64,000 nt of DNA from the human T2T-CHM13v2.0 reference genome, Homo sapiens, in the NCBI RefSeq assembly GCF_009914755.1, contig NC_060934.1. The stretch is one strand, 5' to 3'. A program made the translations under genes and the position numbers. This document shows, in pieces, positions 32,499-58,712 of this stretch; position 1 is the first letter of the stretch; each line of letters begins with the position of its first letter. The notes beneath the pieces are model-generated. The model saw nothing but the letters and a program-made list of their open reading frames with translations, ran no database searches and was not told the DNA's origin.

Positions 32499-32556
<58 letters not shown>
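32499..32556. repeat. (TG)29 microsatellite
   Basis: 58 bp of uninterrupted TG at the tail of an L1M fragment. Confidence 0.97.
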
Positions 32557-33086: not shown

Positions 33087-33235
33087 TGCAGTGAAGAGTT
33101 TTCGCTGTAATGGCTGATATGATGCCACTTCCTTCACAGACCAAGTACAGGCCATGTTTGGTCTCTGTCCCATTCCACTACAGGGTGCATCCAGAAGAAT
33201 TCGGTCAAAGGATTCTGGTAGAAATGGAGGTTCTC
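33087..33235 (-). CDS. NSUN6: NSUN6 exon, (G)EPPFLPESFDRILLDAPCSGMGQRPNMACTWSVKEVASYQPLQRKLFTA
   Basis: Minus strand ctttatag|GAGAAC...ACTGCA|gtatgt; 149 nt; motif IV DAPCSG. Confidence 0.96.
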
Positions 33236-33867
33236 CTATAAAGAGAATTATAATCATGTTTACTATCTTCCATATAGGTTTAAACTAGAAAACTCCTGAG
33301 ATGAGCAGGAATTTAAAATCATAATCTAGAATAAAAAAATGAAACAATTTCTCCCTTCAATCAAGTAGCTGGTTAAACTAATTTTGACTTATACCTAATA
33401 CAGATTTGATGTGGTAGAAAGGTTAAAAATGTAGTTATAGTTGAAAGTTATTCTGTTGATATAGTACAAACCAAGGCCTAATCACAAAAGACCTTCTACC
33501 CCAAACTTCAGAAGCCACAACTCATCAAAGCTAGGACTTGGAATTAATTCTAGTTGTTCTGGAAATGGATACTTCTCTTGGTAATTCCTATTGAAGACAG
33601 CCCCCAAGAAAATGCCTGTTTGACTGTTGTGAAACACACTGATTCTGTGTTCCTGAGTCTCCTTGTTTCTGTGGCCATGAGAATGGCTATGGTCTAGAAT
33701 AGGGAGAATGAGCCAGTACCACCCCTAGATTCAATCTTCCACGAAGTTTTCCTTTGCATTCACTTCAGTAATTTTCTCTAACTTCTAATCTATTTAATAT
33801 TATTGGAGGAAGGTGTGAAACCAAGTGGTCTGTTTACATATTTGGGCTGTCTACCTGCTACCAAGAT

Positions 33868-34570
33868 TTCCATTCCATTCCGCATTCCATTTCATTCCGC
33901 ATTCCATTCCATTCCCCATTCTATTCCATTCTCCATTCCATTCCATTCCATTCCCCATTCCATTCCATTCTGCGTTCCATTCCATTCTCCATTCCACTCC
34001 ATTCAATTCTCTACTCCATTCTATTCTCCATTCCATTTGATTCTCCATTCCATTCTTCTCCATTCAAATTCCCTAATCAATTCCATGCTCCATTACATTC
34101 CATTCTACACTACACTGCATTCCACATATCATTCCATTCTCAATTCACCATTCCATTCTCCCTTCCATTCCATTCCACTACACTCGACTCTCCATTCCAT
34201 TCTCCACTCAATTCTCCATTACATTCCATTCTCCATTCCATTCCATTCCATTCTATTCCACTCCATTCTCTAATCTATTCTCCATTTCATTCCATTCCCT
34301 TCTCCATTCCATTTCCCAATCCATTCTCCATTCCATTAAATTCCATCTTCAGTTCGATTCCATTCTCCATTCCATTCCGTTCGATTCTCCATTCCATTCC
34401 ATTCTCCCTTCCCTTCCATTCCATTCTCCATTCCATTCCATTGCATTCTCCATTCCATTCCATTGCATTCTCCATTCCATTCCATGCTCCATTCGATTCC
34501 ATTTCATTCTCCATTCCATTCCATCCTCCATACCATTCCATTCTCTATTCCGTTCCGTTCTCCATTCCAT
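33868..34570. repeat. HSat3-like satellite block 1 (CATTC strand on +), degenerate
   Basis: (CATTC)n with interspersed CATTCTC; starts ~630 bp from the NSUN6 acceptor at 33236. Confidence 0.93.
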
Positions 34571-37500
34571 GGAATGGAATGGGGAATGGTATGGAATGAA
34601 ATGCAGAATGGAAGAGAATGGAATGGAGAATGGAAGGGAATGGGAAGGAGAATGGAATGGAATGCAGAATGGAGAATGGAATGGAATGGAGAATGGAATG
34701 GAATGCGAAATGGAATGGAATGGAGAATGAACTGGAATGGAGAATGGAATGGAATGGAGAATGGAATGGAGCGGAGAAAGGAATGGAGTGGAGAATGGAA
34801 TGAAAGGGAGGATGGAATGGAATGAAATGGAGTGTGGAATGGAGATTGTTTTGAATGGAATAGGGAATGGAATGGCATGGAGTGGAACGGAATGGAAGGA
34901 AGAATGGAATGGAATGGAGAATGGAATGCAATGTAGTGGAAAATGAAAAGGAATGCAGAATGGAATGGAAATGTAACAAATGGAGAATGGAATAGAATGC
35001 TGAATGGAATGGAGAATGGATTGGAATGGAATGGAATAGAGAATGGAGAATGGAATGGAATGCAATGGAGAATAGAGTAGAATAGAATAGAATGGAGAAT
35101 GGAATGGAATAGAATGAAGATTGAACTGGAATGCAGAGTGGAATGAGATGGAGAATGGAATGGAATGGAATGGAGAACGGTATGGAATGGAATGGAATGG
35201 AGAATGGAAGGGAATGGAATGGAATCGACAATGCAGAATGGAATGGAGAATGTAATTGATTACAGAATGGAATGGCATAGAGAATGAACTCAAATGGAGA
35301 ATGGAATGGAATGGAGAATAGAATGCAATGGAATGGAGACTGGAATGGAATGGACAGGAATGGAGAAGGGAATAGAATTGAATGGAGAATGGATTGGATA
35401 AACGAATGCGGAATGGAATGGAATCAAGAATGGAATGGAATGGGGAATGGAATGGAATGCAGAATGATATGGAATGGACTGGAGACTGGAAGGGAATGGA
35501 AAGGAGAATGGAATGGAATGTAGAAAGAAGAATGGAATGGAATGGAGAACAGAATGCAATGGAGAGTGGAATGCAATGTGGAATGGAATGGAATGGAGAG
35601 TGAACTGGAATGGAGAATGAAATGGAATGGAGTGGAGAATGGAATGAAATGGAGAATGGAATAGAGAATGGAATGGAACAGACAACGGAATGGAATGAAC
35701 AATGGAATGGGGAATGGAATGGAGTGGAGAATGGAATGAAAGGGAGAATGGAATGGAATCAATCGGAACGTGGAATGCAGAATGGGTATGAATGGAATAG
35801 AGAATTGAATGGAATGGAGTGGAATGGAATGGAACAGAGAATGGAATGGACTGTAGTGGAAAAAGGACTGGAGAATGGAATGGAATGGAGAATGTAACAG
35901 ATGGAGAATGGAATGCAATGGAGAATGGAATGGAATGCTGAATGGAATGCAGAATGGAAGAGAGAATGCAGTGGAGTGGAGAATGTATGGGAATGGAATG
36001 GAGAATGGAATGTAATGGAGAGTGGATGGAATGTATTACAATGGAGAATGAAATGGAATGGAATAGAATGGTATGGAATGGAAAACGGCATGGAATGGAA
36101 TGGAGAATGGACTGGGAAATGGGATGGAATATAATGGAGAATGGAATGGAATAGAGAATGGAAGAAACGGAATGGAATCAAGAATGGAATGGAATGGAAT
36201 GGAATGAAATGAAATGGAGAATGGAATGGACACTGGAATGGAAAATGTAATGGAGAATAGAATGGAATGCAGTGGAATGGAGAGTGGAATGGAGAATGGA
36301 ATGGAATGGAGAATGGAATGGAGTGGAGAATAGAAAGGAACAGAGAATGGAATGGAGTGAAGAATGGCATGGAAGGAAATGGAGAATGTAATGTAATGGA
36401 GAATGGAATGGAGGATGGAATGGAATGGAGGATGGAATGGAATGGAGAATGGAATGGAATATGGAATGGAATGGAGGATGAAATGGAATAGAGTGGAGAG
36501 TATAGAGGAAAGTAACTGAATGTGAATGAAATGGAATGAAGAATGGAATGGAATGGAGAATGGAATAGAGTGGAATGGAGAATGGAATGGAATAGAGAAT
36601 GGAATGGTATGGAGAATGGAATGGAATGGAGAATGGAATGGAATCGAATGGAGCATGGAATGGAATGGAGAATGCTATGGAATGCATTGGAGAATGGAAC
36701 AGAGTGGAATAGAGAATGGGATAGAATGCAGTGGTGAATAGAATGGAATGAAGGATGGTATGGAGAATGGAATGGAAGGGAGCATGGAATGAAGGCAGCA
36801 TGGAATGGAATAGAGAATGGAATGGAATGGAGAATGGAATGAAATGGAGTGGAGAATGGAATGGAATAGAGAATGGAATGGAATGGAGCATGGAATGTAA
36901 TGGAGAACAGAATGGAATGGAATGGAATGGAATGGATGATGGTATGGAGAATGGAATGGACAGTGGAATGGAATGGAGAATGGAATGGACAATGGGTTAG
37001 AATGGAGAATGGAATAGAATGGAGAATGGAAAAGAGCGGAATGGAATGGAGAATGGAATGGAAAGGAGGATGGAATGGAATGGAAAGTGGAATGAAATGG
37101 AATGGAGAAGAATGGAATGGAGAATGGAATGGAATGGAGAATGAACTGGAATGGAGAATAGAATGGAATGGAGAATGGAATGGAATGGAATGGAATGGAA
37201 TGGAATGGAGAATGGAAGGGAATGGAATGGAAAATGGTATGGAATGGAGAATTAAATAGAATGGATAATAGAATGGAATATGGAATGGAATGAAATGAAG
37301 ACTGGAATGGAGAATGGTGTGGAATGGAAGGGAAAATGGAGAATGGAATGGAATCGAGAATTGAATGGAATGGAATGGAGAATAGAATGCAATTGAATGG
37401 GATGGACATGAATGGAGAATGGAATGGAATGGAGAATGGAATGGAATGGAATGCAGAGTGGAATGGAATGAAGAATGAAGAATGGAATAGAATGCAATGG

Positions 37501-40500
37501 GAAGTGGAATGGAATGGAATGCGAATAGAATGGAATGAAGAATGGAATGGAAAATGGAATAGAATGGAATGCACAGTGGAATGCAATGGAGAATGGAATG
37601 GAATAGAGAATGGAATGGGGAATGTAATGGAATGGGGAGTAGTATGGAATGCAATAGAGAATGGAAGGCAATGGAATGAAGAATGGAAGAAAACAGAAGG
37701 GAGAATGGAATGGAATGGAGAACTGAATGGAATGGAATGCAGAATGGGATGAAATGGAGAATGGAATGGAATGGAATGGAGAATGGAATAGAGAATGGAA
37801 TGGAACGGAGAATGGAATGGAATGCAGTGGTGAATAGAATGAAATGGAGAATGGAATGTTATGGAATGGAGGATGGTGTGGAGAATGGAATGGAATAGAC
37901 AATGGAATGGAATGGACATGGAATGGAGAACGGAATGGAGAATGGAGTGGGGAATGGAATAGAATGGGGAATTGAAATGCGAATGGAATGGAAAGGGGAA
38001 GGGAATGGAATGGAGAATGGATTGGAATGGAATACAGAAGGATTTGGTATGGAATGAAGAATGGAATGGAAGGTAGAATGGAATGGAATGGAGACTGAAC
38101 TGAAATGGAGAGTGGAATGCAATGGAGAATGCAAGGGAATGGAATGGAGGAAGGAAGGGAATGGAATGGAGAAAGGAAGGGAATGGAATGGAAAATGGAA
38201 TGGAATGGAGAATGGTATGGAACGGAATGGAGAATGGAAGGGAATGGAATGGAGAATGGAAGGGAATGGAATGGAGAATGGAATGCAGTGAAAAATGGAA
38301 TAGAATAGATAGTGGAATGGAGAATGGAATGGAAAGTGGAATGGAATGGAAAATGGAATGGAATGCAGCATGGAATGCAATGAAATGGAGAATAGTGTGC
38401 AGAATGGAATGGAAAGTAGAGAATGGAATGGAATGGGGAATGGAATGCAGTGGTGAATAGAATGGAATGGAAAATGGTGTGGAGGATGGAATGCGTATGC
38501 AATGGAGAAAAGAGAACATGGAATGGAGAATGGAATTGAATGCAGAATGGAATGGAATGGAGAATGCTACGGAATGCAGTGGAGAGTGGAAGAGAATCGA
38601 ATGGCGAAGCGGATGGAATGCAGTGGTGAACAGAATGGAATGGAGGATGGTATGGAGAATGAAATGGAGTGGAGAATGGAATGGAAGGGAGCATGGAATG
38701 GAATGGAGAATGGAATGGAATGGAGAATGGAATGAAATGGAATGGAGAATGGAATGGAATAGAGAATGGAATGGAATAGAGCATGGAATGGAATGGAGAA
38801 TAGAATGGAAGGGAGAATGGAATGGAATGGAATGGATGATGGTATGGAGAATGGAATGGACAGTGGAATGAATGGAATGGAGAATGGAATGGAAGATGGA
38901 TTGGAACGGAGAATGGAATAGAGTGGAGAATGGAAAAGAGCGGAATGGAATGGAGAATGGAATGGAAAGGAGGATGGAATGGAATGGAAAGCGGAATGAA
39001 ATGGAATGGAGAATGGAATGGAATGGAGAATGAACTGGAATGGAGAATAGAATGGAATGGAGAATGGAACAGAATGGAATGGATAATGGAAGGGAATGGA
39101 ATGGAAAATGGTATGGAATGGAGCATTAAATAGAATGGAAAATAGAATGGAATATGGAATGGAGCGTGGAATGGAATGGAATGAAATGAAGAATGGAATG
39201 GAGAATGGTGTGGAATGGAAGGGAAAATGGAGAATGGAATGTAATCAAGAATTGAATGGAATGGAATGAAGAATAGAATGCAACTGAATGGGATGGACAT
39301 GAATGGAGAATGAAATGAAATAGAATGGAGAATGGAATGGAATGGAATGCAGAATGGAATAGAGAATGGAATGGAATGAAGAATGGAGAATGGAATAGAG
39401 TGGAATGGACTGGAGAATGGAATGGAATGCGAATAGAATGGAATGAAGAATGGAATGGAGAATGGAATGGAATGGAATGCACAGTGGAATGCAATGGAGA
39501 ATGGAATGGGGAATGTAATGGAATGGGGAGTAGTATGGAGTGCAATAGAGAATGGAAGGGAATGGAATGGAGAATGGAAGGAAATGGAAGGGAGAATGGA
39601 ATGGAATGGAGAACGGAATGGAATGGAATGAGGAATGGGATGGAATGGAGAATGGAATGGAGTGGAGAATGGAATGGAATGCAGTGGTGAATAGAATGAA
39701 ATAGAGAATGGAATGTAATGGAATGGAGGATGGTGTGGAGAATGGAATAGAATGGAGAAGGGAATGGAAAAAGGAATAGAATATGGAATGGAATGGAGAA
39801 AGGAATAGAATATGGAATGGAACGGAGAATGGAATGCAGTAGTGAATATAATGGAGTGGAGAATGGAATGTAATGAAATGGAGGTTGGTAAGGATAACAG
39901 AATGGCGTGGAGAATGGAATGGAGAATGGAATGGAAGGGAGAATGGAAAGGACTTGAAAATGGAAAAGAATGGAATGGAATGGAGGATGGAATGGAATGG
40001 ATAGTGGAATGAAATGGAATGGAGGATGGAAAGGAATGGAATGGAGGTTGTTAAGGAGAATGGAATGGAATTGAGAATAGAATGGACAATGGAATGGAAG
40101 GGAGAATGGAATGAAAAATGGAAAAGAATGGAATGGAGAATGCAATGGAATGGAAAATGGAATGAAATGCAATGGTGAATAGAATGGAGTGAAGAATGGA
40201 ATGGAATTGAGAATGGAATGGACAATGGAATGGAAGGGAGAATGGAAGGGAGAATGGAAAAGAATGGAATGGAGAATGCAATGGAATGGAAAATGGAATG
40301 AAATGCAATGGTGAATAGAATGGAGTGAAGAATGGAATGGAGGATGGTATGGAGAATGGAATGGAATGGAGAATGGAATGGAATTGGAAATGGAGGAGAA
40401 TTGAATGGAACGAAGAGTGGAATGAAATGGAGAATGGAATGCAGAATGGAATGGAATGGAGAATAGAATGGAATGGAAGATGGAATGGAATAGAGAATGG

Positions 40501-43500
40501 AATGGTGAATGCAATGGAATGGGGAATGGAATGGAGAATGTAACGGATGGAGAATGGATTAGAATGTGGAATTGAATGGAATGGAGAATGGAATGAAATG
40601 GAATGGAGAATGGGATGGAATGGAGAATTGATTGGAATGGAATTGAATAGAGAATGGAATGGAAGGGAGAATATAATGGAAAGGAATGGGGAATGGAATG
40701 GGGAATGGAATGGAATGGAGAATGGAATAGAATGGAGAATGGATTGGAATGGAATGGAGAATCGAATGGAGAATGGAATGGAATGGAATGGAGAGTAGAA
40801 TGGATTGGAATGGAACAGAATGGAGAGTGGAGAATAGAAACGAATTGAATGGAATGGAGAATGCAATAGAGAATGGAATGGAATGGAGAATGGAATGGAA
40901 TGCGGAATGGAATGGAGAATGGAATGGAATTAAGAATCTTACGGAGACGGCAATGGAATGTGAAATGTAATGCATTGGAATATGGAATGCAATGAAGAAT
41001 GAAATGGAATGGACAATGGAATGGAATGGACAATGGAGTGGAGAATGGAAGGGAATGGAATGCAGAATGGAATGGAAGCGAATGGAGAATAGAATGGAAT
41101 GGAATGGAATGGAGAAAGGAATGGGGAATGGAATGCAGTGGGGATTTGAATGCGGAATGGAATGCAATGGAAAGGGGAATGGAATGGAATGGAGAATGGA
41201 TTGGAATGGAATGGAGAATGGACTGGAATGGAATAGAGAATGGTTTGGAATGGAATGGAGAATCGAATGGAATAGAGAATGGAATGCAATGGAGAATGGA
41301 ATGGAATGGAGATTGAGCTGGAATGGAGAATGGAATGAAATGGAAAATGGAATGGAATGGAATGGAGAAAGGAAGGGAAGGGAATGGAATGGAATCGAGA
41401 ATGCAGAATGGATAATAGAATGGAATGTGGAATGGAATGGAATGGAGAATGAACTGGAATGGAAAATGGAATGGAATGGAGAATGGTATGGAATGGAACG
41501 GAGAATGGCAGAGAATGGAATGGATAATGTACGGCAATGGAATAGAGAATGGTATGGAATGGAGAATGGAATAGAATGGATAATGGAATGGAGAATGGAA
41601 TGGTATGAGAAATGTAATGTAATGTAATGCAGGATGGAATGGAATGGAGCATGGAATGCAATGAAATAGAGAATGAAGTGGGCAACGGAACAGAAAATGG
41701 AGAATGGAGAATAGAATGGCATGCACTGGTGAATAGAAAGGAATGGAGAATGGAATGGAATGGAGAAAGGAATAGAAAATGGAATGGAATGGAGAATGGA
41801 ATGGAATACGGAATGGAATGCAGTGGTGAATAGAATGGAATGGAGGATGGTATGGAGAATGGAATAGAATGGAAAATGGAATGGAGTAGAGAATGGAATA
41901 TAAAGGAATGGAATGGAGAATGGAATGGAGAATGGAGAATGGAATGGAGAATGGAATGGAATGTGGAATGGAATGCAATGAGGAATGGAATGGAATGGAG
42001 AATGGAATAGAGAATGGAATGGAATAGAGAATGGAATGGAGATGGAATAGAGAATGGAATGGTATGGAGAATGGAGAATGATATGGAACGGAATGGAGAA
42101 TGGAAGAGAATGGAATGGGGTGCAGTGGTGAACAGAATGGAATGGAGAATGGAATGGAATGGAGGATGGTATGGAGAATGGAATGGAATGGAGCATAGAA
42201 TGGAATGGAGCATGGAATAAAATGGAACATGAAATGCAGTGATGGAGAATGGTATGGAGTGGAATGGAAAATGGGGTATGGAATGGAATGGAGAATAGAA
42301 TGGAATGGAATGCAGAATGGAATGGAGGATGGTATGGAAAATGGAATGGAATGGAGAATGGAATGGAATGGAAAAAGGAATAGAATATAGAATGCAATGG
42401 AGAATGGAATGGAGAATAGAATGGAATGGAATACAGTGATAAATAGGCTAGAAGGGAGAATGGAACAGAATGAAATGAAATGGAATGGAGGATGGAATGG
42501 AGAATGGAATGGAATGCAGTGGTGAACAGAATGGAATGGAATGGAGGATGGTATGGAAAATGGAATGGAATGGAGAATGGAATGGAATGGAGAATGGAAT
42601 AGAATGGAGAATGGAATAGAATGGAGAAAGGAATAGAATATGGAATAGAATGGAGAAAGGAATAGAATATGGAATAGAATGGAGAACGGAATGGAGAATA
42701 CAATGGAATGGAATGCAGTGGTGAATAGAATGGAATGGAGAATGTAATAGAATGAAACGTAATGCAGGCTGGAATGGAGAATGGAATGGAATGGAGAATA
42801 GAATGGACAATGGAAAGAAATGGAGAATGGAATGAATGGAATGGAGAATGGAAAAGAGTGGAATGGAATGGAGAATGGAATGGAATGAAAAATGATATGG
42901 AATGGAGAATTGAAAGGAATGGATAATGGAATGGAATGCGGAATGCAATGGAGCATGGAATGGAGTGGAGCATGAAATGGAATGAAGTGGAGAATGGAGT
43001 GGAATGGAACGGAAAGTGGAGCACTGAATGGAATGGAGAATAGAATGGAATGGAAAATGGAATGGAACAGAATGGAGAATGGAAGGGACTGGAGAATGGA
43101 ATGGAATGGAGAATAGAATGCAATAGAATGGAATGGAATGGAGAATGGAATGGATTGGACAGGAATGCAGAATGGAATGGAATAGAATGGAGAATGGAAT
43201 GCAACGGAGAATGGAATGGAATGCAGAATGGAATGGATTGCAGAATGGAATGGACTGCGAAACGGAATAGCATGAAGAAGAATGGAGGATAGAATAGAAG
43301 GGAATGGAGAACGGAATGGAATGGAGAATGGAATGGAATGCGGAATGGAATGGAATGCGGAATGGAATGGATTGCAGAATGGAATGGATTGTAGAATGGA
43401 ACAGAATGAAGAAGAATGGAGAATGGAATAGAATGGAATGGAGAATGGAATAGAATGGAATGGAGAATGGAGTGGAATAGAGAATGGAATGGGGATTGTA

Positions 43501-44489
43501 ATGGAATGGGGAATGGTATGGAATGAAATACAGAATGGAAGAGAATGGAATGGAGAATGGAAGGGAATGGGAAGGAGAATGGAATGGAATGCAGAATAGA
43601 GAACGGAATGGAATGGAGAATGGAATGGAATGCGAAATGGAATGGAATGGAGAATGAACTGGAATGGACAATGGAATGGAATGGATAATGGAATGGAATG
43701 GAGTGGAGAAAGGAATGGAGTGGAGAATGGAATGAAAGGGAGGATGGAATGGAATGAAATGGAGCGTGGAATGGAGATTCTTATGAATGGAATAGAGAAT
43801 GGAATGGCATGGAGTGGAATGGAATGGAAGGAAGAATGGAATGGAAGGAAGAATGGAATGGAATGGAGAATGGAATGGAATGTAGTGAAAAATGGAAAGG
43901 AATGGAGAATGGAATGGAAAATGTAACAAATGGAGAATGGAATGGAGAATGGAATAGAATGCTGAATGGAATGGAGAATTGATTGGAATGGAATGGAACA
44001 GAGAATGCAGAATGGAATGGAATGGAATGGAGAATGGAGTAGAATAGAATGGAGATTGAACTGGAATGGAGAGTGGAACAAAATGGAGAATGGAATGGAA
44101 TGGAGAATGGTATGGAATGGAATGGAGAATGGTATGGAATGGAATGGAGAATGGTATGGAATGGAAGGCAATGAAATGGAGAATGGAAGGGAAGGGAATG
44201 GAGAATGGAATGGAATCGAGAATGCAGAATGGAATGGAGAATGTAATTGATTACAGAATGGAATAGAATAGAGAATGAACTAGAATGGAGAATGGAATGG
44301 AACGGAGAATGGTATGGAACTGAGAATGGTATGGAACGGAATGGAGAATGGCAGGAATGGAATGGAGAATGAAAGGGAATGAAATGGAGAACGGTATGGA
44401 ATGGAGAATGGAATAGAATGGAGAGTGGAATGGAATATGGGATAGAATGGAGAGTGGAATGGAGAGTAGAATGGAAAGTGGAATGGAAT
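34571..44489. repeat. HSat3-like satellite block 2, inverted (GAATG/GGAGAAT strand on +), ~9.9 kb
   Basis: Dominant unit GGAAT-GGAAT-GGAGAAT (12/17-mers); CpG-poor, with few TCGAAT words, so not HSATII-like. Confidence 0.95.
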
Positions 44490-47400
44490 ATTCTCCCTTC
44501 CCTTCCATTCCATTCTCCATTCCATTCCATTGCATTTTCTATTCCATTCCATTCCATTGCATTCTCCATTCCATGCTCCATTCGATTCCATTCCATTCTC
44601 TATACCATTCCATTCTCTATTTCATTCCATTCTTCATTCCACTCCGTTCCATTCTCCATTCCATTCCATTCTCCATACCATTCCATTCTCCATTCCACTC
44701 TATTCCATTCTCCATTCCATTCCATTCACATTAAATTACATTCCACTACACTCTCCACTCCATTCCATTCAATCCTCCCTTCCATTCCATATTCCATTCC
44801 ATTCTCCATTCCATTCCATCCTCCATTACATTACATTCTCCATTCCATTCCACGTCATTCTTCACTCCATTCCATTCTCGATTCCTTTCTATTCTCCACT
44901 CCATTCCATTCCATTCTCCATTCCACTGCATTCCATTCTATTCTCCATTACATTTTACATTCCATTCTCCATTTCATTTCATTCCATTCCATTCTTGATT
45001 CCATTCCATTTCTTCCATTCTCTATTCCATTCCATTCTCCATTATATTCCATCCCATTTCCCAGTCCATTCTCCATTACAGTCCATTCCATTTTCCATTC
45101 CATACCATTCCATTCCATTTCATTCTCCACTGTAATACATTCCATCCACTCTCTATTACATTCCATTCTCCATTCCATTCCCATACATTCTCCACTCCAC
45201 TGCATTCTCTATTCCATTCTCCATTCCATTCCACTCCTTTCCGCATACCTTTCCATTCTCCATTGCATTCCATTCTCCATCTGTTACATTCTCCATTCCA
45301 TTCCATTCTCCCGTCCATTTTTCACTCCATTCCATTCCATTCTCCGTTCCATTCCATTCCACTCTCTATTCCATTCATACCCATTCTCCATTCCATGCTC
45401 AATTTCATTCCATTCCATTCTCCCTTTCATTCCATTCTCCACTCCATTCCATTCCCCATTCCATTGTCCATTCCATTCCATTCTCTATTCCATTCTCCAC
45501 TTCATTCCATTTCATTCTCCATTCCGTACCATTCTCCATTCCAGCTCACTCTCCCTTCCATTCCATTCCACACTGCATTCCACTCTCCATTGCATTCTGT
45601 TCTCCATTCCATTCCATTCTTCATTTTACATTCCATTCCATTCTCCTTTCCATTCCCTTCCAGTCTCCATTCCATTCCATACCATACTGCATTCCATTCC
45701 ATTCCATTCCATTCTGCATTCCATTCCATTATTCAATTCATTCTCCATTCAATTCTATTCCATTCTCCATTCCTGTCCATTCCATTCCAGTCTCCATTCC
45801 ATTCCATTTCATTGCATTCTATTCTTCATTCCATTCCATTCTCCATTCCATTCCATTTCATTGCATTCTATTCTTCATTCCATTCCATTCTCCATTCCAT
45901 TCCATTCTCCATTTTCCATTCCATCACATTCCATTCCATTCCCCACTCCATTCTCCATTTCATTGCTTTCCATGCTCCATTCCATTCCTTTCCATTCTCC
46001 ATTACATTACACTCCATTCCACGTTCCATTCCATTCTCCATTCTATTCCATTCTCCATTGCATACCATTCTCCATTTCATTCCCTTTCATTCTCTGTTCC
46101 ATTATTTCCATTCTCCATTCCGTTCCATAACATTCTCAGTTCCATACCATTCTCCATTCCATTCCGTTTTCCATTCCAGTTCATTCCGTAATCAATTACA
46201 TTTTCCATTCCATTCTGCATTCTCGATTCCATTCCATTCTCCATTCCATTCCCTTCCATTCTCCATTCTATTCCCTTCCACTCTCCATTTCATTCCCTTC
46301 CATTCCATACCATTCTCCATTCCATTCCATACCATTCTCCACTCCATTCCATTCTCCATTTCATTCCACTCTCCATTCCAGTTCAGTCTCCATTCTATTC
46401 CATTCCATTCTCCATTCCATTCTATTCTACTCCATTTTCCATTACATTACATTCTCCATTCTCCGTGGCATTCCATTCCAATCCATTCTCCATTCCATTC
46501 AGCATTCTATTCCATTCTCCATTCCATTCTCCATTTGTTACATTTTCCATTCCATTCTCCATTCCTTCCCATTTTCCACTACATTCCATTCCATTCTTCC
46601 TTCCATTCCATTCCACTCCATGCCATTCCATTCTCTATTATATTCACAACAATCTCCATTCCACGCTCCATTTCATTCCATTTCATCCTCCCTTTCATTC
46701 CATTCTCCACTCCATTCCTTTCTCCACTCCATTCCATTCTCCATTCCATTCCATTGTCCATTCCATTCTATTCTCCATTCCAGTTCATTCTGCATTCCAT
46801 TCCATTCTCCATTCCATTCCCTTCTCCATTCTGCATTCCATTCCATTCTCCCTCCCATTCCCTTCCATCCTTCATTCCATTCTCTTCCATTCCATACCAT
46901 TCCCCATTCCATTACAATCCCCATTCCATTCTCTATTCCATTCCATTCTCCATTCCACTCTATTCCATTCTCCATTCTACTCTATTCCATTCTCCATTCT
47001 TTATTCTATTCCATTCCACAATCCATTCCATTCCACATTTCATTCCATTCCACATTCCATTCCATTCTCCATTCCATTCCATTCTCCATTCCACTCTATT
47101 CCATTCTCCATTCTACTCTATTCCATTCTCCATTCTTTATTCTATTCCATTCCACAATCCATTCCATTCCACATTTCATTCCATTCCACATTCCATTCCA
47201 TTCTCCATTCCATTCCATTCTCCATTCCATTCTATTCCATTCTCCATTCTTCATTCTATTCCATTCTGTAATCCATTCCATTCCGCAATCCATTCCATTC
47301 CACATTCCATTCCGTTCTCCATTCCATTCCATTCTCCATTCCATTCTATTCCATTCTCCATTCTTTTTCAGTCTATTCCATTCCACAATCCATTCCATTC

Positions 47401-50400
47401 CGCAATCCATTCCACTCCACATTCCATTCCATTCTCCATTCCATTCTCCATTCTTCTCCATTCTATTCCATTCCACAATCCATTCCGTTCAGCAATCCAT
47501 TCCATTCTGCATTCCATTCCATTCTCCATTCCATTCCATTCTCCATTCCATTCCATTCTCCATTCTATTCCACTCCATTCTACATTCCTGTCCAATCCAT
47601 TCCATTCTCCATTCCATTCCATTCTATTGCATTCTACTCTCCATTCCATTCCATTCTCCAGTCCCTTCCATTCTCCATTCTATTCCATTCCATTTCCCAT
47701 TCCATTCTATTCTCCATTCCATTGAATGCTCCATTTTCTGTTCCATTCCACACCATTCTCCACTCCATTCTCCATTTCATTCCATTCCATGCTCCATTCC
47801 ATTCGATGCTCCATTCGATTCTGCATTCCATTCCATTACCCATTCCCTTCAATTCTCCATTCCATACCATTTTTCATTCCATTCCATTCTCCATTCCATT
47901 CCACTCTTTCCCATTCTCCATTCCATTCATTCCATTCTCCATTCCTTTCCATTGTCCATTCTATTCTCCATTCCACTCCATTCTCCATTCCAGCCTCCAT
48001 TATATTTCATTCTATTCCATTCTCCATTCCATTCTATTCACCACTGCATTCCATTCCATTCTACTCTCCATTCCATTCTCCATTCCATTCCATATTCTAT
48101 TCCTTTCTCCATTCTATTCCATTCTCCATTCCATTCCATTTTCCATACCATCCTCCATTTCATTCCATTCTATTCACCACTGCATTCCATTCCATTCTCC
48201 ATTACATCCTCCATTACATTTCATTCTATTCCATTCTCCCTTCCAGCCTATTCATCACTGTATTCCATTCCCTTCTATTCTCCATTCCATTCCATATTCT
48301 ATTCCTTTCTCCATTCTATTCCATTCTCCATTCCATTCCATTTTCTATACCATCCTCCATTCCATTCTATTCACCAATGCATTCCATTCCATTCCATTCT
48401 ATTCTCCATTCCATTCCATATTCCATTTTCCATTCCATTCCATACCATTCTCCATCATTGCATTTCATGCTCCATTTCATTCCATGCTCCATTCCATTCC
48501 ATGCTCCATTCCATTCCATTCTCCATACCATCCTCCATTCCATTCCATTCTCCATTCCATTCTATTCACCACTGCATCCCATTCCGTTCTCCATTCCATT
48601 CTCTTCCATTCTCCATTCCGTTCCATTCCATTCTCCATAGCATTCCATTCTCCATTCCATTCTCTATTCCATTCCATTCTCTATTCCATTCTCCATTCCA
48701 TTCCATTCCTCATTGCATTCCATTCCGCATTCCATTCCATTCTCCTTCCATTCTATTCTCCATTGCATTCCATCCTCCATTCCATTCTGCATTTCATTCC
48801 ATTCCTTTCTCCATTTCATTCCATTCTCCATTCCATTGCATTCTACATTCTTCATTCCATTCTCCATTCCATTCCTTTACATTCCATTCTCTACTCCATT
48901 CCATTTTCCATTCTATTCCATTCTCCATACCATCCTCCATTCCATTCTATTCACCACTGCATTCCATTCCATTTTCCATTCCATTCTCCATTCCATTCCA
49001 TATTCTATTCCTTTCTCCATTCCATTCCCCATTCCATTCCATTCTCCATTCCTTTCTATTCACCACTGCATGCCATTCTATTCTCCATTGCATTCTATTC
49101 TCCATTCTCCATTTTCCGTTCCATTCCATTCCATTCTCTATTTCATTGCACTCCATGCTCCATTCCATTCCATTCTGCATTACATTACATTTCTCATGCC
49201 ATTCCATTCTCCATTCCATTATCCATTCTATTCCATTCTCCATTCCACAAAATTCACCATTCCATTCCCGTCCATTATCCATTTCATTCTCTGCCATTCT
49301 CTGTTCCACTCCATACCATTCTCCATTCCATTCCTTTTTCCATTCCAGTTCATTCTCCATTCCATTCCGCATTCCATTCTATTATCCATTCTATTTCATT
49401 CTGCATTCTCGATTCCATTCCATTCCCTTCCCTTCCTTTCTCCATTCCATTCTCCATTCCATTCCATTCCATTCTCCATTTCATTCCATTGTCCATTCCA
49501 GCTCCATCTCCATTCCATTCCATTCTCCATTGCATTCCATTCTATTCTCCATTCCATTCCAAACCATTCTCTATTCCATTCCAATCCATTCTCCATTCCA
49601 TTCCAATCCATTCTCCTTTCCATTCCATTCCCCTTTCCATTGCATTCCATTCCACATTCAAATCCCCATTGCATTCCATTCCCCATTCCATTCCATTCTC
49701 TTTTCCATTCTATTCTCCATTCACTTCCATTCCATTCTGCATTCCATTCCCTTCCATTCTCCACTCCACTGTCCATTCCATTTCATTCTCCATTGCATTC
49801 CATATTCCAATACATTTCACATTCCATTGCAGTCTCCCTAACATTCTTCATTCCATTCCACATTCCATTCCGTTCTCCATTCCATTCCATTCTCTATTCC
49901 ATTCTACATTCCATTCAATTCCTTTCTATTCTCCACTCTCCATTCTGTTCCATTCCAATCCATTCTACTCTCCATTCCATTCCATTCTCCATTTGGTTCT
50001 CCATTCCATTCCAATCCATTCTCCATTCTATTCCATTCTCCATTCCATTCCCTTCCCCATTCCTTTCCATTATATTCTCCCTTCCATTACATTCTCTATT
50101 CAATTCCATTCCAATCAATTCTCCATTTCATTCCATTCTCCATTCCATTCAATTCCACATTCCATTCCATTCTCCATCCGTTACATTCTCCATTCCATTC
50201 CCCATTCCACTGCATTCTCCATTCCATTCTCTATTCCATTCCATTCCATTCTCCATTCCATTCCATTCTGCATTCCATTCTCCATTTCATTCCACTCTCC
50301 GTTCCATTCCATTCTCCTCCATTTCCAAGTCCATTCCATTCTCCATACCATCCTCCATTCCATTCCATTCTCCACTCCATTGTATTCACCACTGCATTTC

Positions 50401-53400
50401 ATTCCATTTTCCATTCCATTGCATTCTCCATTCCATTCTCTTCCATTTTCCATTCCATTCTCCCTTCCATTCCATTGCCCATTCCATTCTCAATTCCATT
50501 CCATTCTCCTTACCAACCTCCATTCCATTCCTTTCCATCCTCCATTCCATTTCATTCCACTATCCATTCCATTCCATCCTCCATTCCATTCCATTCTTTT
50601 CCATTTTCAAGTCCTTTCCATTCTCCCTTCCATTCTATTGTCCATTCCATTCTCCACACCATTCCATTCTCCTTACCAACCTCCATTCCATTACATTCCA
50701 TTCTCCATTCCATTATATTCACTACTGCATTCAATTCCATATTCTATTCCTTTCTCCATTCCACTCTCCATTCTATTCCATTCTCCACACCATCCTCCAT
50801 TCCATTACATCCCATTCTCCATTTCATTCTATTCACCACTGCATTTCATTCCATTCTCCATTCCATTCCATTCTCTATTCCATTCTCCATACCATTCCAT
50901 TCTCCATTCCATCCCATTCCGCATTCCATTCCATTCTCCATTCCATTCCATTCTCCCTTCTATTTCCTTCCATTCTCCATTCCATTCCTTTCCTTTCTCT
51001 ATTGCACTCCATACTACTCCCCATTCCATTACATTCCCCATTCCATTCTCAATTCCATTCCATTCTCCATTGCATTCCACTATTCATTCCATTCTATTCC
51101 ATTCTCCATTCCATTCTATTTGCATTCCATTCCATTCTCCATTCCATTCCACTGCCCATTCTATTCTATTCCATTCTCCATTCTTCATTCCATTCCATTT
51201 CGCATTCCATTCCATTCTCCCTTCCATTCCACTCCATTCTCCATTCTATTTCATTCCATTCTCCATTCATGTCCATCCCATTCCATTGCATTCTATTCTC
51301 CATTCCATTCCATTCAATTCTCGATTCCATTCCATTCTCCATTTTCCCTTCCATTCCACACCATTCTCCATTCCATTCTTCATTTCATTCTATTCCATGC
51401 TCCATTCCATATTCAATTCCATTATCCATTCTATTTAATCCTCCATTCCATACCATATTCCATTCCATTCCCTTCCATTCTCCATTCCATTCTCCATTCC
51501 ATTCCATTCTCCATTCCATTCCATTCTCCAATCCATTTCGTTCCACTTTCCATTCCATTCCATCCTCCTTTCCATTCCATTCTCCATTCCATCCTCCATT
51601 CCATTCCGCTCTTTTCCATTCTCCATTCCAATCCAGTGTCCATTCCATTCTCCATTCCATTCCACTGTCCATTCCATTCCATTCTCCATTCCATTCCATT
51701 CTCCATACCATCATCCATTCCATTCCATTCTATTCTCCATTCCATTTCATGCTCCATTCCATTCCATTCTCTATTCCATTCCATTCTCCACTCCATTTCA
51801 TTCCATTCTCCATTCCATTCTCCATTCCATTCCATGCTCCCTTCCATTCCATTCTCCATACCATCCTCCATTCCATTCTATTCACCACTGCATTCCATCC
51901 CATTCTCTATTCCATTCTCTTCCATTCTCCACTGCATTCCATAGCATTCTCCATTCCATTCCATTCTCCATTCCATTCCATTCTACATTCAATTACATTC
52001 TACATTCCATGTTCTCTTTTCTCCATTCCATTCCCATTCCATTTTCCATTCCATTCTATTCACCACTGCATTCAATTCCCCATTCCATTCCATTCTCTAC
52101 TTTCCATTCCACTCTCCACTCAATTCTCCATTTCATTGCATTCCATGCTCCATTCTATTCCATTCTCCATTCCATTCCACTTTTCATTCCATTCTCCATT
52201 CCACTATCTATTCTATTCCATTCTTCACTGCATTCCATTCTCCATTCCATTCCCTTCCATTCTCTTCCATTCTCCATTCTGTTCCATACCATTCTTCATT
52301 CCATTCCATTCTCCATTCTCCTTTCCATTCCCTTCCTTTCTCCATTCCATTCCCTTCTTTTCTCCATTCCATTCCCTTCTTTTCTCCATTCCATTCCCTT
52401 GCATTCTCCAGTGCATTCCACTCTCCATTCCAGTTCAATCTCCATTCCATTCCATTCTACATTCCATTCCATTCTCTATTCCATTCCATTCTTCATTCCA
52501 TTCCAAACCATTCTCTATTCCATTCCAATCCATTCTCCATTCCATTCCCTTCCCCTTTCCATTCCATTCCCCATTCTATTCCATTCCCCACTCCATTCTC
52601 CACTGCATTCTATTCCATTCTCCATTCCATGTCTATTCCAATGTCCATTCCATTCCATTCTCTATTCCATTCCATTCTCCCATTCCATTCCATTCTCCAC
52701 TGCACTGCACTCCATTTCATTCTCCATTCCATTCCAATCTCAATTCCATCTCCATTCCATTCTCCATTCCATTCCATTCTCTATTCCATTCCGCATTCCA
52801 TTCCATTCCATTCTGCATTCTGTTCCATTCTCCATTCCATTCCATTCTCCATACCATCCTCCATTCCATTACACTGCATTCCATTCTCCATTCTATTTTA
52901 TTCACCACGGCATTCCATTACATTTTCCATTCCATTCTATTCTCCATTCCATTCCATATTCTATTCCTTTCTCCATTCCATTCCCCTTTCCATTCCATTC
53001 TCCATTCCATTCCATTTTCTATTCCACTCCATTCACCACTGCATTCCATTCCAGTCTCCATTCCATTCCATTCTCCATTGCATTTCATTCTCCACTGCAT
53101 TCCTTTCCATTCCATTTCCCACTGAATTCCATTCTCCATTCCATTCCCTTCTATTCTCCATTTCATTTCACTCTCCCTTCCAGTTCAATCTCCATTCCCT
53201 TCCATTCTCCATTCCACTCCACATTCCCTTCCATTCTCCATTCCATTCTATTGTCTATTCCATTCCATTTCAATTCATTGTTCACTCCATTCCCTTCCCC
53301 ATTGCATTGTCCATTCCATCCCATTCTCCATTCCATTCCCTTCCATTCTCCATTTCATTCCACTCTCCCTTCCAGTTCAATCTCCATTCCATTCCATTCT

Positions 53401-54600
53401 CCATTCCACTCCACATTCCATTCCATTCTCCATTCCATTCCATTTTCTATTCCATTCCATTCCAATCCATTGTCCATTCTATTCCATTCCCCATTCCATT
53501 GTCCATTCCATTCCCCATTCTGTTCTATTCCCAATTAAATTCCCCATTCCATTCCACTCCCCATTCCATTCTGCATTCCATCTCCATTCCCTATTCCATT
53601 CCATTTTCCATTCCATTCCATTCTCCATTCCTTTCCTTTTATTCTATTTCAACTCCATTCCATTCTCCATTTCATTCCATTCTCCTTTCCATTCTATTCT
53701 ATTCTCCATTCCATTCTTCATTCCATTCCATTCTCCATTCTCTTCCATTCTCCTTCCATTCTCCATTCCATTCCCTTCTCCATTCCATTCCACATCCTCC
53801 TTTCAATTTCATTCTCCATTCCATTCCCCATTCCATTTCAAACTCCATTCCATTCCATTCCATACTCCATTCCCTTCCATCCTCCATTCCATTCTCCATT
53901 CCATTCCATTCCTTTCTGCATTTCATTCCATTCCTTTCTCCATTTCATTCCATTCTCCATTCCATTTTCCATTCCATTCCATCCTCCATTCCATTCCATT
54001 CCTTTCTCCATTCCATTCCATTCTCCATTCCATTTCATTCTCCATTCCTTTCTCTATTCCATTCCATTCCATTCTCCACTGTATTCCATTCTTCATTCCA
54101 TTCCATTCTCCATTCTCTTCTCCATTCCATTCCATTCTCCGTTCCACTCCATTCCATTCCATCCTCCGTTACACTCCATTCCATTCCATCGTCCATTCCG
54201 TTCCACTCTCCATTTCATTCCATTCCATTCCACTGTCCATTCCACTGCATTCTCCATTCCACTCCATTCTCCACTCCATTGCATGCTCCGTTTCATTTCA
54301 TTCTCCATTCCATTTTCCATTGTCCATTGCATTCCATTCTGCATTCTCCATCCCATTCCATTCTCCATTCCATTCCAATCTCCATTCCATTCCATTACCC
54401 ATTCCTTTCCATTCCTCATTCAATTTCCAATTCCTTTCCATTCTCCATTCCATTCCATTCTCCCTTCCATTCCATCGGTTCCATTTTCCTTTCCATTCCA
54501 TTCTCCATTCCATCCCATATTCCATTCCATTCTCCATTCCATTGCATTCTCCATACCATTCTACATTCCATTCCATTCCGTTCTCCATTCTCCATTCCCT
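44490..54600. repeat. HSat3-like satellite block 3 (CATTC strand on +), ~10.1 kb
   Basis: Same units as block 2 on the opposite strand; ends abruptly at ERV pol sequence. Confidence 0.95.
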
Positions 54601-54608
54601 TCTCCCAC

Positions 54609-57600: not shown

Positions 57601-58712
57601 CTACAGCCTGGGGTAACAAGTCATGCCAAGCTCTCTCTCTGCTACATCCCGAAGTTTGACACCCTGCGGGTCAGCCCCCGAGGGCCATCCAGCTTCCATC
57701 CCCCAACACTAAGTTCACTTTGTGTCTCTCATGACAGGGAGGAAACTTAGCATTCCTTGGAGACCGGAAGGGATGCAGTGAGCTTAAGAATTTTTAAGAG
57801 CTTACCAGTCAGTCAGCCCTTGTTCGTCCCCGAGCAGATTGTGGTGGTATTGTGGTAGACCTTTACTGGATACTCTGCCAAGTAACTGGAGTGGCACCTG
57901 TGCTTTAGTACAATTAGCTATCCCTTTCACCCTGGCATTTCATCAACCAGAGGAAGAAAAAATAGGACATTGTAAGCAAGAGAAGCCCCTTATGGGTCCT
58001 TCAACTCTCATGTCTATTTAGACGCAATTGGAGTCTCATGGGGAATACCAGATCAATTTAAAGCCTGAAATCAAATAGCTGCAGGATTTGAGTCAGTATT
58101 TTGGTAGGTGACAATAAAAATGTAGATTGGATACACTACATCTATTACAACCAACGGCGATTTATTAACTACACTACAGATGCTGTTAAAGGAATAGCTG
58201 AGCAATTAGGGGCTACTAGCCAGATAGCTTGGGAAAACAGGACAGCCTTAGACATGATATTAGCAGAAAGAGGAGGAGTTTGATTCATAATTAAAACTCA
58301 ATGTTGTACCTTCATCCCAAACACCACCGCCCCTGATGGAAATATAACAAAGGCATTGCAAGGTCTGACTGCTCTGTCTAATGAGTTAGCCAACAACTCA
58401 AGGGTAAATGACCCTTTTATAGAATGGCTAGAAAAGTGGTTCGGTAAATGGAAAGGAATAATAGCCTCAATTCTTACTTCCCTCGCAGCCGTAATGGGTG
58501 TACTTCTTCTTCTTGGGTGCTGTGTCATATCACGCATCCATGGGTTGGTACAGAGGCTCATAGAAATGGCACTTACTAAAATCTCCCTTAACTATCTCCA
58601 CCTTATCCAGAGAAGTTTCTCCTTTTGGAAAATCAAGCAGAACAACTAAGCCAAGACATGTTAAAGAAGTTTGAAGAGAAAGAGCTATAAGGAAAATGTG
58701 AGAAGAGGGAAT
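54609..58712 (+). mobile_element. 5'-truncated class I ERV internal region (HERV-I / HERVIP10F-like), decayed pol and env
   Basis: RT LLQYVDDLL (YVDD 54681-54692), FLGLVGYC, RNase H LFIDASS (~55580), integrase DSDNGTHF and SSGRVERMN (ORF 56410..56781), env immunosuppressive domain WENRTALDMILAERGG; many stops and frameshifts; PPT aagagggaa before the LTR. Confidence 0.9.

What the first reader, a model, noticed from the sequence alone, without database searches (positions are those of the whole stretch)
34571..52900. Collinear multi-kilobase inverted arms: potential giant dsRNA hairpin in NSUN6 pre-mRNA
Seen: rare words in block 2 reappear reverse-complemented and in order in block 3. Pairs: ggattggacagg ~43152 / cctgtccaatcc ~47588; gagaatggtttgg ~41236 / ccaaaccattctc ~49559; ggaaaggacttgaaaa ~39945 / ttttcaagtcctttcc ~50605; ggggagtagtatggagtg ~39525 / cactccatactactcccc ~51005; aaaagagaacat ~38507 / atgttctctttt ~52008. 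So about 46000-52900 mirrors 44480-37800, and about 44570-46900 mirrors 36660-34580. Inference: one Pol II transcript contains both arms and could fold into several kb of imperfect dsRNA, far longer than an inverted Alu pair. This would be a candidate ADAR substrate, MDA5/PKR ligand if it escapes the nucleus, or small-RNA source. It would also loop most of the array out of the intron.
Basis: partly seen in the sequence, partly recalled or inferred. Interest (0 to 1): 0.8.

Follow-up and report, generated by a model that had tools for sequence, protein, structure and literature searches.

The report
Inverted satellite arms in NSUN6 intron
A known 20-kb GGAAT-type satellite array inside an NSUN6 intron consists of two 10-kb halves in opposite orientation that are old inverted copies of each other, so the pre-mRNA could in principle fold into a very long imperfect RNA hairpin, but whether it does so in cells is untested.

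Summary
Window 33868-54605 is a degenerate (GGAAT)n array in three blocks of alternating orientation. All 5 quoted word pairs are in place. Above a 74-75% any-register satellite background, 38 of 39 block-2 windows have their best reverse-complement partner on three collinear chains. The chains show 94-95% substitution identity, against 86% off-register.

The array and its inversion are already in print (Warburton 2008, Table 1). All paralogue pairs are about equally diverged, which points to one old burst of inverted duplication.

Folding of the NSUN6-sense RNA supports the capacity for a giant hairpin:
- Single arms have almost no self-structure.
- Arm-to-arm duplex energy is about -393 kcal/mol per 250 nt in register and -270 off register.
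- A 6.5-kb minimum-energy fold chooses the collinear register, with helices up to 175 bp.

The duplex is only about 82% paired, it is intronic, and no in-vivo evidence exists. Five literature searches found no paper linking this array to dsRNA. The sequence feature is real and the hypothesis is reasonable and testable, but function is unshown.

The parts
33868..34570 (-). Block 1. A 0.7-kb (GGAAT)n-type satellite with the purine-rich strand on the minus strand. In NSUN6 RNA it reads as purine-rich GGAAU-type sequence.
   Evidence: TRF. Sequence read. 39% of bases are in exact GGAAT units.
34565..34574 (.). Block 1/block 2 orientation switch at the short palindrome TTCCATGGAA.
   Evidence: Sequence read. 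An RNA fold of 33868-35273 gives 556 of 565 pairs across this junction.
34571..44489 (+). Block 2. A 9.9-kb satellite with the purine-rich strand on plus. In NSUN6 RNA it is the pyrimidine-rich (AUUCC-type) arm, transcribed second.
   Evidence: TRF. Composition: G 0.377, A 0.415, T 0.181, C 0.028.
44485..44494 (.). Block 2/block 3 head-to-head switch with no spacer, at the palindrome GGAATATTCC. This is the apex of the fold-back.
   Evidence: Sequence read. The innermost predicted pair is 44494-44488.
44490..54605 (-). Block 3. A 10.1-kb satellite with the purine-rich strand on minus. In NSUN6 RNA it is the purine-rich GGAAU-type arm, transcribed first.
   Evidence: TRF. Composition. The right edge was read.
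37821..44320 (+). Chain B, left arm (6.5 kb). Inverted paralogue of 46122-52749.
   Evidence: 26 of 26 windows on the chain. 94.7% substitution identity, 175 gap events, 82% WC+GU paired in NSUN6-sense RNA.
46122..52749 (-). Chain B, right arm (6.6 kb).
   Evidence: Holds the longest perfect complementary run, 122 bp, starting at 39929 and pairing down from 50635.
34571..36570 (+). Chain A, left arm (2.0 kb). Inverted paralogue of 44680-46931. It crosses chain B.
   Evidence: 8 of 8 windows on the chain. 93.7% substitution identity.
44680..46931 (-). Chain A, right arm (2.25 kb). It overlaps the chain B right arm at 46122-46931.
36571..37820 (+). Chain d. An extra direct copy of about 38450-39800, and therefore also an inverted paralogue of 50847-52041.
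   Evidence: Direct chain 36761-37891 = 38670-39748. The three copies are equidistant at 94.1-94.9%.
52750..54605 (-). Tail of block 3, with no partner above the satellite background.
   Evidence: The 7 windows starting 52740-54240 score 146-157 against second-best scores of 144-153.
34401..34570 (+). Direct repeat copy x1 at the end of block 1. It matches 44490-44659, so the two copies flank block 2 exactly.
   Evidence: Ungapped identity at offset 10089 is 47, 41 and 37 of 50 in successive windows, against about 1-20 of 50 elsewhere. Alignment. 91.7% substitution identity.
44490..44659 (+). Direct repeat copy x2 at the start of block 3.
33087..33235 (-). NSUN6 exon downstream of the intron that holds the array. 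Its 3' splice site lies 633 nt from the array.
   Evidence: Hub annotation given with the finding. Not tested here.

Best explanation
This is the already catalogued 10p12.33 GAATG (satellite-III-like) array with an internal inversion. It sits in an NSUN6 intron.

Origin. Block 2 (34571-44489) is a rearranged inverted paralogue of about 8 kb of block 3 (44680-52749). It is flanked by a 170-bp direct duplication. All paralogue pairs differ by about 5-6% in substitutions. This points to one old burst of inverted duplication and rearrangement inside a pre-existing array. The date (tens of millions of years) is an inference from a recalled neutral rate.

RNA. One arm is about 80% purine and the other about 80% pyrimidine in the transcript. 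Neither arm can fold on itself, and each is the other's only available partner. The naked NSUN6 pre-mRNA is therefore predicted to form a long, imperfect hairpin. The thermodynamic optimum is the collinear 6.5-kb chain B with a roughly 1.8-kb apical loop. The kinetically easiest route is a zipper from the zero-spacer junction at 44489/44490.

In cells (inferred, not shown). Duplex formation is most likely partial and transient, confined to the nucleus, open to ADAR editing and helicase unwinding, and removed with the intron. No selected function is expected.
For: Identity of the array:
- TRF blocks.
- Warburton 2008 Table 1 lists 'GAATG 10p12.33 chr10:18881540-18902473 20,933 inversion' (hg18, passages seen). 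The array here is 20,738 bp.

Paralogy:
- 38 of 39 block-2 windows and 31 of 40 block-3 windows lie on the chains.
- Chain B has 94.7% substitution identity and 175 gap events. Four off-register controls have 85.7-86.6% and 352-370 gap events.
- 61 of 82 perfect inverted runs of 40 bp or more lie on the chains.
- Three-way comparisons are equidistant: 94.1, 94.7 and 94.9% for the d unit, and 94.4, 91.7 and 94.0% for the A-start unit.
- The flanking duplication is seen.
- The best other matches listed in the same genome to 39758-40251 are 70-78% identical (60 listed).

Folding:
- Over 18 windows, self-fold energies are -1.5 and -4.3 kcal/mol per 250 nt. The duplex gain is -393 in register, -270 off register and -268 for the zipper.
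- 6.5-kb MFE: -3703.8 kcal/mol, with 1879 of 2252 pairs in sum bins 90400-90700.
- Single-arm 2-kb folds give -0.011 and -0.032 kcal/mol/nt, against -0.30 and -0.32 for ordinary intron.
Against: - There are no transcriptome, editing or cross-linking data here, so every in-vivo statement is inference.
- GGAAU-type RNA is reported to bind SRSF1, SRSF9, TDP-43 and others (review PMC7151548, passages seen). These proteins could coat the first arm during the minutes before its partner is made.
- The order of the pieces (block 2 = rc(P1) + d + rc(P2), where block 3 reads P1 then P2) is not explained by one simple inversion, so the rearrangement path is unresolved.
- The own-genome search scored only 39 of 6703 candidates and did not list the locus itself. 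'No closer relative elsewhere' is therefore a lower-bound statement.
- The dating assumes neutrality and no gene conversion.
Confidence: 0.6

Rival explanations
1. The hairpin forms stably in the NSUN6 pre-mRNA or the excised intron and matters biologically. It could be a major ADAR substrate or sink, a PKR/MDA5 ligand when it escapes (intron retention, lariat accumulation), a small-RNA source, or a device that loops 20 kb out of the intron and aids splicing.
For: - The thermodynamics are very favourable and competing self-structure is absent.
- There are 20 helices of 30 bp or more and 11 of 50 bp or more in 6.5 kb. From recalled knowledge, that is enough for PKR and ADAR binding.
[quoted passage not shown] Its 10-kb window could not have captured these arms whole.
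- A 2026 paper reports cytoplasmic intron-derived dsRNA when lariat debranching fails (PMC13189227, listing abstract only).
Against: - The duplex is only about 82% paired, with an interruption every 11-16 bp on average.
- Barak 2020 finds the strongest selection against long, nearly perfect duplexes and much weaker depletion in pre-mRNA (PMC7006430, abstract and passages). An imperfect intronic structure is therefore tolerated rather than notable.
- MDA5-filament ligands were over 90% 3'-UTR inverted Alus with high complementarity (PMC13251931, passages).
- The arms have drifted to 5-6% substitution divergence with many indels, so there is no sign that complementarity is maintained.
- No paper was found linking NSUN6 or this array to dsRNA.
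Confidence: 0.12
2. The arms essentially never pair in cells. The purine-rich arm is made first and is coated co-transcriptionally by SR proteins, hnRNPs and TDP-43, or engages the template as an R-loop. Helicases such as DHX9 and DDX3X keep the arms apart. The array is then an inert intronic satellite at the RNA level too.
For: - GGAAU/UGGAA repeat RNAs bind many proteins (PMC7151548, passages).
- The far ends of chain B are about 15 kb apart. At the usual Pol II rate (recalled) that is minutes of transcription.
- DDX3X is reported to suppress inverted-repeat dsRNA (PMC13251931, passages).
- The purine-rich strand has 2-3% C, a strong skew of the kind associated with R-loops (recalled).
Against: - The junction has no spacer, so the first nucleotides of arm 2 emerge next to complementary sequence. 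A fold-back needs no long-range search.
- Only 36% of bases are in exact GGAAT units and the longest pure run is 6 units. High-affinity repeat-protein arrays of the HSATIII or SCA31 type are not assured.
- Inverted Alus hundreds of nt apart pair and are edited routinely (recalled).
Confidence: 0.25
3. The relevant consequence is at the DNA level. A 10-kb zero-spacer inverted repeat forms hairpins or cruciforms during replication, making a fragile or rearrangement-prone site.
For: The central 1 kb folded as single-stranded DNA gives -297.7 kcal/mol, against -135.4 +/- 7.1 for 20 shuffles (z = -22.7). The junctions are short perfect palindromes.
Against: - Identity around the centre is at background level: 87.7% substitution identity with 533 gap events in the symmetric register.
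- The array length is nearly the same in hg18 (20,933 bp) and here (20,738 bp), which suggests stability.
- The arms have diverged without homogenisation.
Confidence: 0.03

Closest known systems
Large GAATG / satellite III arrays with internal inversions (Warburton et al. 2008, PMC2588610, Table 1)
   Same: It is the same object. The table lists a GAATG array at 10p12.33, 20,933 bp in hg18, structure 'inversion'. The pentamer unit and block orientation are confirmed here.
   Different: The passages I saw give only the word 'inversion'. They do not describe the collinear arm-to-arm paralogy above background, the flanking 170-bp duplication, the position inside an NSUN6 intron or any RNA reading.
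Inverted-repeat Alu pairs in introns and 3' UTRs (ADAR1 substrates)
   Same: Two copies of a repeat lie in opposite orientation within one Pol II transcript and are predicted to pair into imperfect dsRNA. Most such pairs are intronic and nuclear (PMC7006430; PMC13251931).
   Different: The arms here are 6.5-10 kb, against about 0.3 kb (recalled). They are built of tandem satellite, so they can pair in many registers. There is no spacer at the junction. Each arm is purine- or pyrimidine-rich with no self-structure. Editing is not shown.
HSATIII architectural RNA of nuclear stress bodies, and the SCA31 intronic UGGAA repeat
   Same: The same GGAAU/UGGAA-type pentamer is present in RNA. SCA31 is also intronic (PMC7151548, passages).
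   Different: The array here is degenerate: 36% of bases are in exact GGAAT units and the longest pure run is 6 units. It is constitutively part of a pre-mRNA rather than heat-induced. It carries its own complementary arm in cis, which could mask the repeat.
Satellite dsRNA from bidirectional transcription (for example DUX4-induced HSATII; recalled, only the listing abstract of PMC11702838 was seen)
   Same: A GAATG-derived satellite as a source of nuclear dsRNA.
   Different: That dsRNA is intermolecular, made of sense and antisense transcripts from pericentromeric arrays. Here the complementarity is intramolecular and lies in a euchromatic gene.
Large DNA palindromes kept alike by arm-to-arm gene conversion (Y-chromosome palindromes; recalled)
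   Same: Multi-kilobase inverted arms.
   Different: The arms here have 94-95% substitution identity plus many indels, not the over 99.9% recalled for Y palindromes. They are rearranged rather than mirror-symmetric, and there is no sign of homogenisation.

Membership tests
GAATG / satellite III-type tandem array | Tandem repeats derived from the pentamer GGAAT/ATTCC | tested here: met
   TRF finds period 5 (and 17, 22) over 33868-54605. 36-39% of bases are in exact GGAAT units.
GAATG / satellite III-type tandem array | Sequence similarity to other arrays of the family in the same genome | tested here: met
   A 494-bp query matched 60 listed places on contigs 7, 9, 10, 13, 14, 15, 20, 21 and 22 at 70-78% identity. 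I did not check the annotation of those places.
GAATG / satellite III-type tandem array | Listed as such in the literature at this cytoband with an inversion | tested here: met
   Warburton 2008 Table 1, passage seen.
Intramolecular inverted-repeat dsRNA (IR-Alu-like ADAR substrate) | Both arms in opposite orientation within one primary transcript | tested here: met
   Orientation. Both arms lie in one NSUN6 intron by the hub annotation, which I did not test independently.
Intramolecular inverted-repeat dsRNA (IR-Alu-like ADAR substrate) | Predicted stable base-pairing between the arms | tested here: met
   For example, the 6.5-kb MFE is -3703.8 kcal/mol with 2089 of 2252 pairs inter-arm.
Intramolecular inverted-repeat dsRNA (IR-Alu-like ADAR substrate) | Clustered A-to-I editing or direct duplex evidence in cells | not testable with these tools
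   No RNA-seq, editing or cross-linking data are held. No paper was found.
Long nearly perfect dsRNA (MDA5-type ligand, as in Barak 2020) | Long duplex with very high arm identity (over 95% in the passage seen) | tested here: not met
   Chain B has 94.7% identity counting substitutions only, 92.0% with gap events and 80.5% with gap nucleotides. The criterion was read.
Gene-converting DNA palindrome | Near-identical mirror-symmetric arms | tested here: not met
   The symmetric register about 44489.5 is at background level (87.7% substitution identity, 533 gap events). The homologous arms are offset and permuted.
hpRNA / endo-siRNA hairpin locus | Dicer-dependent small RNAs mapping to both arms | not testable with these tools
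   No small-RNA data are held.

The most novel reading that the evidence does not exclude
The NSUN6 intron forms the longest intramolecular RNA duplex in the human transcriptome, with 6.5-kb collinear arms and up to about 10 kb in total. Genome-wide dsRNA and editing surveys would have missed it because the arms are satellite (multi-mapping, and by my recollection blacklisted) and exceed the 10-kb scan window of dsRNAscan. The duplex would act as a constitutive nuclear sink or substrate for ADAR1, DHX9 or ILF3-type proteins. At the same time it would mask a 10-kb UGGAA/GGAAU-like repeat that would otherwise sequester SRSF1, SRSF9 and TDP-43 as SCA31 and HSATIII RNAs do. If the intron is retained or its lariat persists, it would become a PKR or MDA5 trigger.
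Probability: 0.1. Interest if true: 0.75.

Novelty: new member of a known kind. Interest (0 to 1): 0.42.

Why it matters
If the hairpin forms, it would be an order of magnitude longer than the inverted-Alu duplexes that dominate the known human dsRNA-ome. It would lie in a broadly expressed gene (expression breadth is recalled) and in sequence that standard pipelines discard.

It gives a concrete, cheap test case with T2T-based remapping of existing nuclear RNA, PARIS or RIC-seq data. The questions are three: whether satellite inverted repeats contribute to endogenous dsRNA, whether cis-complementarity can neutralise a GGAAU-type repeat RNA, and which register a multi-register duplex chooses in vivo (kinetic zipper or thermodynamic collinear).

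If it does not form, it is a useful negative. It would be a sequence with extreme in-silico duplex potential that is kept single-stranded by proteins and helicases.

As a DNA feature it is ordinary and already catalogued.

Tried and rejected
- Assembly artefact: rejected. An independent older assembly lists the same array, of nearly the same size, with an inversion.
- Chance or pure satellite periodicity as the source of the collinear arms: rejected by the off-register controls.
- One simple inversion or a mirror palindrome centred on 44489/44490: rejected. The homologous chains centre near 45.3 kb and 40.6 kb and are permuted.
- Block 1 as a further paralogue of block 2 or block 3 beyond its last 170 bp: not found. 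Best scores are 133-156 against 2nd values (third-ranked chunk) of 132-147.
- My first semi-global identity scan had wrong end-gap settings and gave meaningless values. It was replaced.
- A search for my recalled hg19 blacklist coordinates found only unrelated papers, plus Warburton 2008 through the hg18 number. The blacklist status is recalled only.
- A whole-array (20.7-kb) MFE fold was not attempted because of run time. The largest fold was 6.5 kb.
- Comparison with ape or macaque orthologues could not be done, since no primate genomes other than the window's own are held.
- I did not look at the supplementary tables of the dsRNA papers (PMC11838218, PMC7006430, PMC13251931, PMC12695637). 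They could list this locus.

Full report
**What is there**

TRF shows that window 33868-54605 is one pentamer satellite in three blocks of alternating orientation:
- Block 1: 33868-34570, TTCCA on the + strand.
- Block 2: 34569-44489, ATGGA on the + strand.
- Block 3: 44490-54605, TCCAT on the + strand.

The array is degenerate. Only 36-39% of bases lie in exact GGAAT units, the longest pure run is 6 units, and the commonest spacer is GGAGAAT, which gives a 17-mer sub-period. The purine-rich strand is G 0.38, A 0.41, T 0.18, C 0.02-0.03.

The two orientation switches are short perfect palindromes with no spacer: TTCCATGGAA at 34565-34574 and GGAATATTCC at 44485-44494. Any head-to-head junction of this satellite would be near-palindromic, so I give these little weight as evidence of mechanism.

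The right edge (54605/54606) abuts a retroviral pol remnant.

**Check of the observation**

The satellite background is high. Self-blastn gives 568 minus-strand HSPs, most at 74-75% in any register. The repeat finder reports 36,921 inverted pairs.

Above this background, exact inverted 30-mers (3490 of 3505 within the array) pile up on anti-diagonals with coordinate sums 90.4-90.8k, 88.6k and 81.1k.

I scanned 250-bp windows of block 2 against the reverse complement of block 3. The best partner of 38 of 39 windows fell on three collinear chains, at 81-96% identity. Best scores were 155-224, against window medians of 128-152. The chains are:
- A: 34571-36570 with 46931-44680.
- d: 36571-37820 with 52041-50847.
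- B: 37821-44320 with 52749-46122.

The margin is small in a few windows, for example 35071 (155 against 149) and 37071 (a tie, and off-chain).

The reciprocal scan places 31 of 40 block-3 windows on the chains. The misses are windows 44490 and 45740 and the seven tail windows from 52740 on, which have no partner above background.

Global alignment of chain B gives the following:

| Comparison | Matches | Mismatches | Gap events | Substitution identity |
|---|---|---|---|---|
| Chain B, in register | 5712 | 320 | 175 | 94.7% |
| Four off-register controls | not summarised | 823-878 | 352-370 | 85.7-86.6% |

Of 82 perfect inverted runs of 40 bp or more, 61 lie on the chains. The longest is 122 bp.

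**Origin**

- Chain d exists because 36761-37891 is a direct copy of 38670-39748.
- The overlap of chains A and B in block 3 (46122-46931) exists because that piece occurs twice in block 2, at 34573-35273 and 43500-44264.
- The last 170 bp of block 1 (34401-34570) match the first 170 bp of block 3 (44490-44659) in direct orientation. Block 2 is thus flanked exactly by a direct duplication (91.7% substitution identity).
- All paralogue comparisons are about equally diverged. The three copies of the d unit are 94.1, 94.7 and 94.9% identical. The three copies of the A-start unit are 94.4, 91.7 and 94.0%.

I read this as one old burst of inverted duplication plus rearrangement inside a pre-existing single-orientation array, possibly replication-based template switching. 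The exact path is not resolved: block 2 reads rc(P1) + d + rc(P2), where block 3 reads P1 then P2, so one simple inversion does not explain it.

A substitution divergence of 5-6% between paralogues suggests an age of tens of millions of years. That rests on a recalled neutral rate and is an inference.

A search of the window's own genome with 39758-40251 listed 60 other places at 70-78% identity, none close to the 90% of its local inverted partner. Only 39 of 6703 candidates were scored and the locus itself was not listed, so this is a lower bound.

**What is already known**

Warburton et al. 2008 (PMC2588610; abstract, Table 1 and dot-plot passages seen) list 'GAATG 10p12.33 chr10:18881540-18902473 20,933 inversion' in hg18. 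This is the same array; it is 20,738 bp here. The array and its inversion are therefore in print, and the near-equal size in two assemblies argues against artefact and for stability.

Five searches found no paper in the held library that links NSUN6 or this array to dsRNA, editing or hairpins. A sixth search, on HSat3 inversions, also found nothing on this locus. I did not read supplementary tables. My memory that the interval is on the ENCODE blacklist could not be verified.

**RNA-level test of the interpretation**

NSUN6 is on the minus strand, and by the hub annotation the whole array lies in the intron upstream of exon 33087-33235. Block 3 is transcribed first as purine-rich GGAAU-type RNA. 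Block 2 follows as pyrimidine-rich RNA, then block 1 as purine-rich RNA. The 3' splice site comes 633 nt later. Both arms therefore coexist in one molecule before the intron can be spliced (inference).

Single arms:
- Single arms barely fold. Pieces of 250 nt give -1.5 and -4.3 kcal/mol (18 windows).
- Pieces of 2 kb give -0.011 and -0.032 kcal/mol/nt, against -0.30 and -0.32 for non-satellite sequence of the same intron.

Arm-to-arm duplex:
- Cofolding 250-nt pieces gains -393 kcal/mol in register. It gains -270 for random off-register partners and -268 for the mirror ('zipper') partner about 44489.5.
- Counting G.U pairs, chain B is 82% paired in NSUN6-sense RNA, against about 79% off register.

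Folds of longer stretches:

| Region folded | MFE (kcal/mol) | Pairs | Helices |
|---|---|---|---|
| 4 kb centred on the junction | -2296 | 1642 of 1653 inter-arm | mean 8.3 bp, longest 34 |
| 6.5 kb, 42000-48500, both registers available | -3703.8 | 1879 of 2252 in sum bins 90400-90700 | mean 16.1 bp, longest 175; 20 of 30 bp or more; 11 of 50 bp or more |

In the 6.5-kb fold the MFE takes the collinear register and leaves about 44.5-46.1 kb as a mostly open loop.

Block 1 can also fold back on the start of block 2, with 556 of 565 pairs across the junction.

- Chains A and B cross (i<i'<j<j'). They would form a kilobase pseudoknot and are effectively mutually exclusive.
- The duplex potential is a property of the inverted satellite as such. 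Collinearity roughly halves the interruptions and adds about 45% to the stability, but it is not required.
- Kinetics (the zipper from the zero-spacer apex) and thermodynamics (chain B) favour different registers.

**Likely behaviour in cells (inferred)**

The duplex is imperfect and intronic.
- Barak 2020 reports that long, nearly perfect duplexes are the ones purged, with much weaker depletion in pre-mRNA (PMC7006430, abstract and passages).
- MDA5-filament RNAs were over 90% 3'-UTR inverted Alus of high complementarity (PMC13251931, passages).
- GGAAU/UGGAA RNAs bind SRSF1, SRSF9, TDP-43 and others (PMC7151548, passages), which could compete with pairing.

I therefore think the most likely state is a partial, transient, nuclear duplex that is edited or unwound and degraded with the intron, with no selected function (0.6). 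The alternatives are no pairing at all (0.25), a functional or immunogenic hairpin (0.12), and a mainly DNA-level effect (0.03; the single-stranded DNA fold of the central 1 kb has z = -22.7).

[quoted passage not shown] If this hairpin forms it would be exceptional in length and could have escaped such scans.

**Verdict**

- The sequence feature is real and not due to chance.
- As DNA it is already catalogued.
- The giant-hairpin reading is a sound hypothesis, supported in silico and not in print as far as my searches reach. It is unproven, and a function for it is unlikely.
- It can be tested directly with existing data remapped to T2T-CHM13.

Noticed in passing
window 54606-58649 (+ strand): The satellite array abuts a degraded retroviral internal region. 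An open frame runs out of the satellite into a YVDDLL reverse-transcriptase motif at about 54680. Pfam hits follow for RT_RNaseH_2 (54854-55348), RNase_H (55544-55831) and integrase core rve (56359-56781), and then an env-like frame with no Pfam hit. The pol is cut off on its N-terminal side exactly at the array edge.
   Followed up: partly
window 33815-34316: The RefSeq 'enhancer' feature in the hub table overlaps the left flank and the first 450 bp of satellite block 1. A functional-element call that lies largely in multi-copy satellite sequence may be a mapping effect.
   Followed up: no
window 34571-54605: Strand composition is extreme. The purine-rich strand has only 2-3% C. The first-transcribed arm of NSUN6 RNA is therefore about 80% purine with almost no C, a skew of the kind associated with R-loops (recalled, not tested).
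   Followed up: no
window 46935-47447 and 40080-40341: There are local direct sub-repeats with a 100-136-bp offset inside the arms. TRF also reports a 124-bp period over block 3 at 65% matches. This hints at a weak higher-order periodicity that I did not analyse.
   Followed up: no
window 32499-32556: A dinucleotide-type simple repeat lies just outside the array, seen as a direct chain at offset 2.
   Followed up: no
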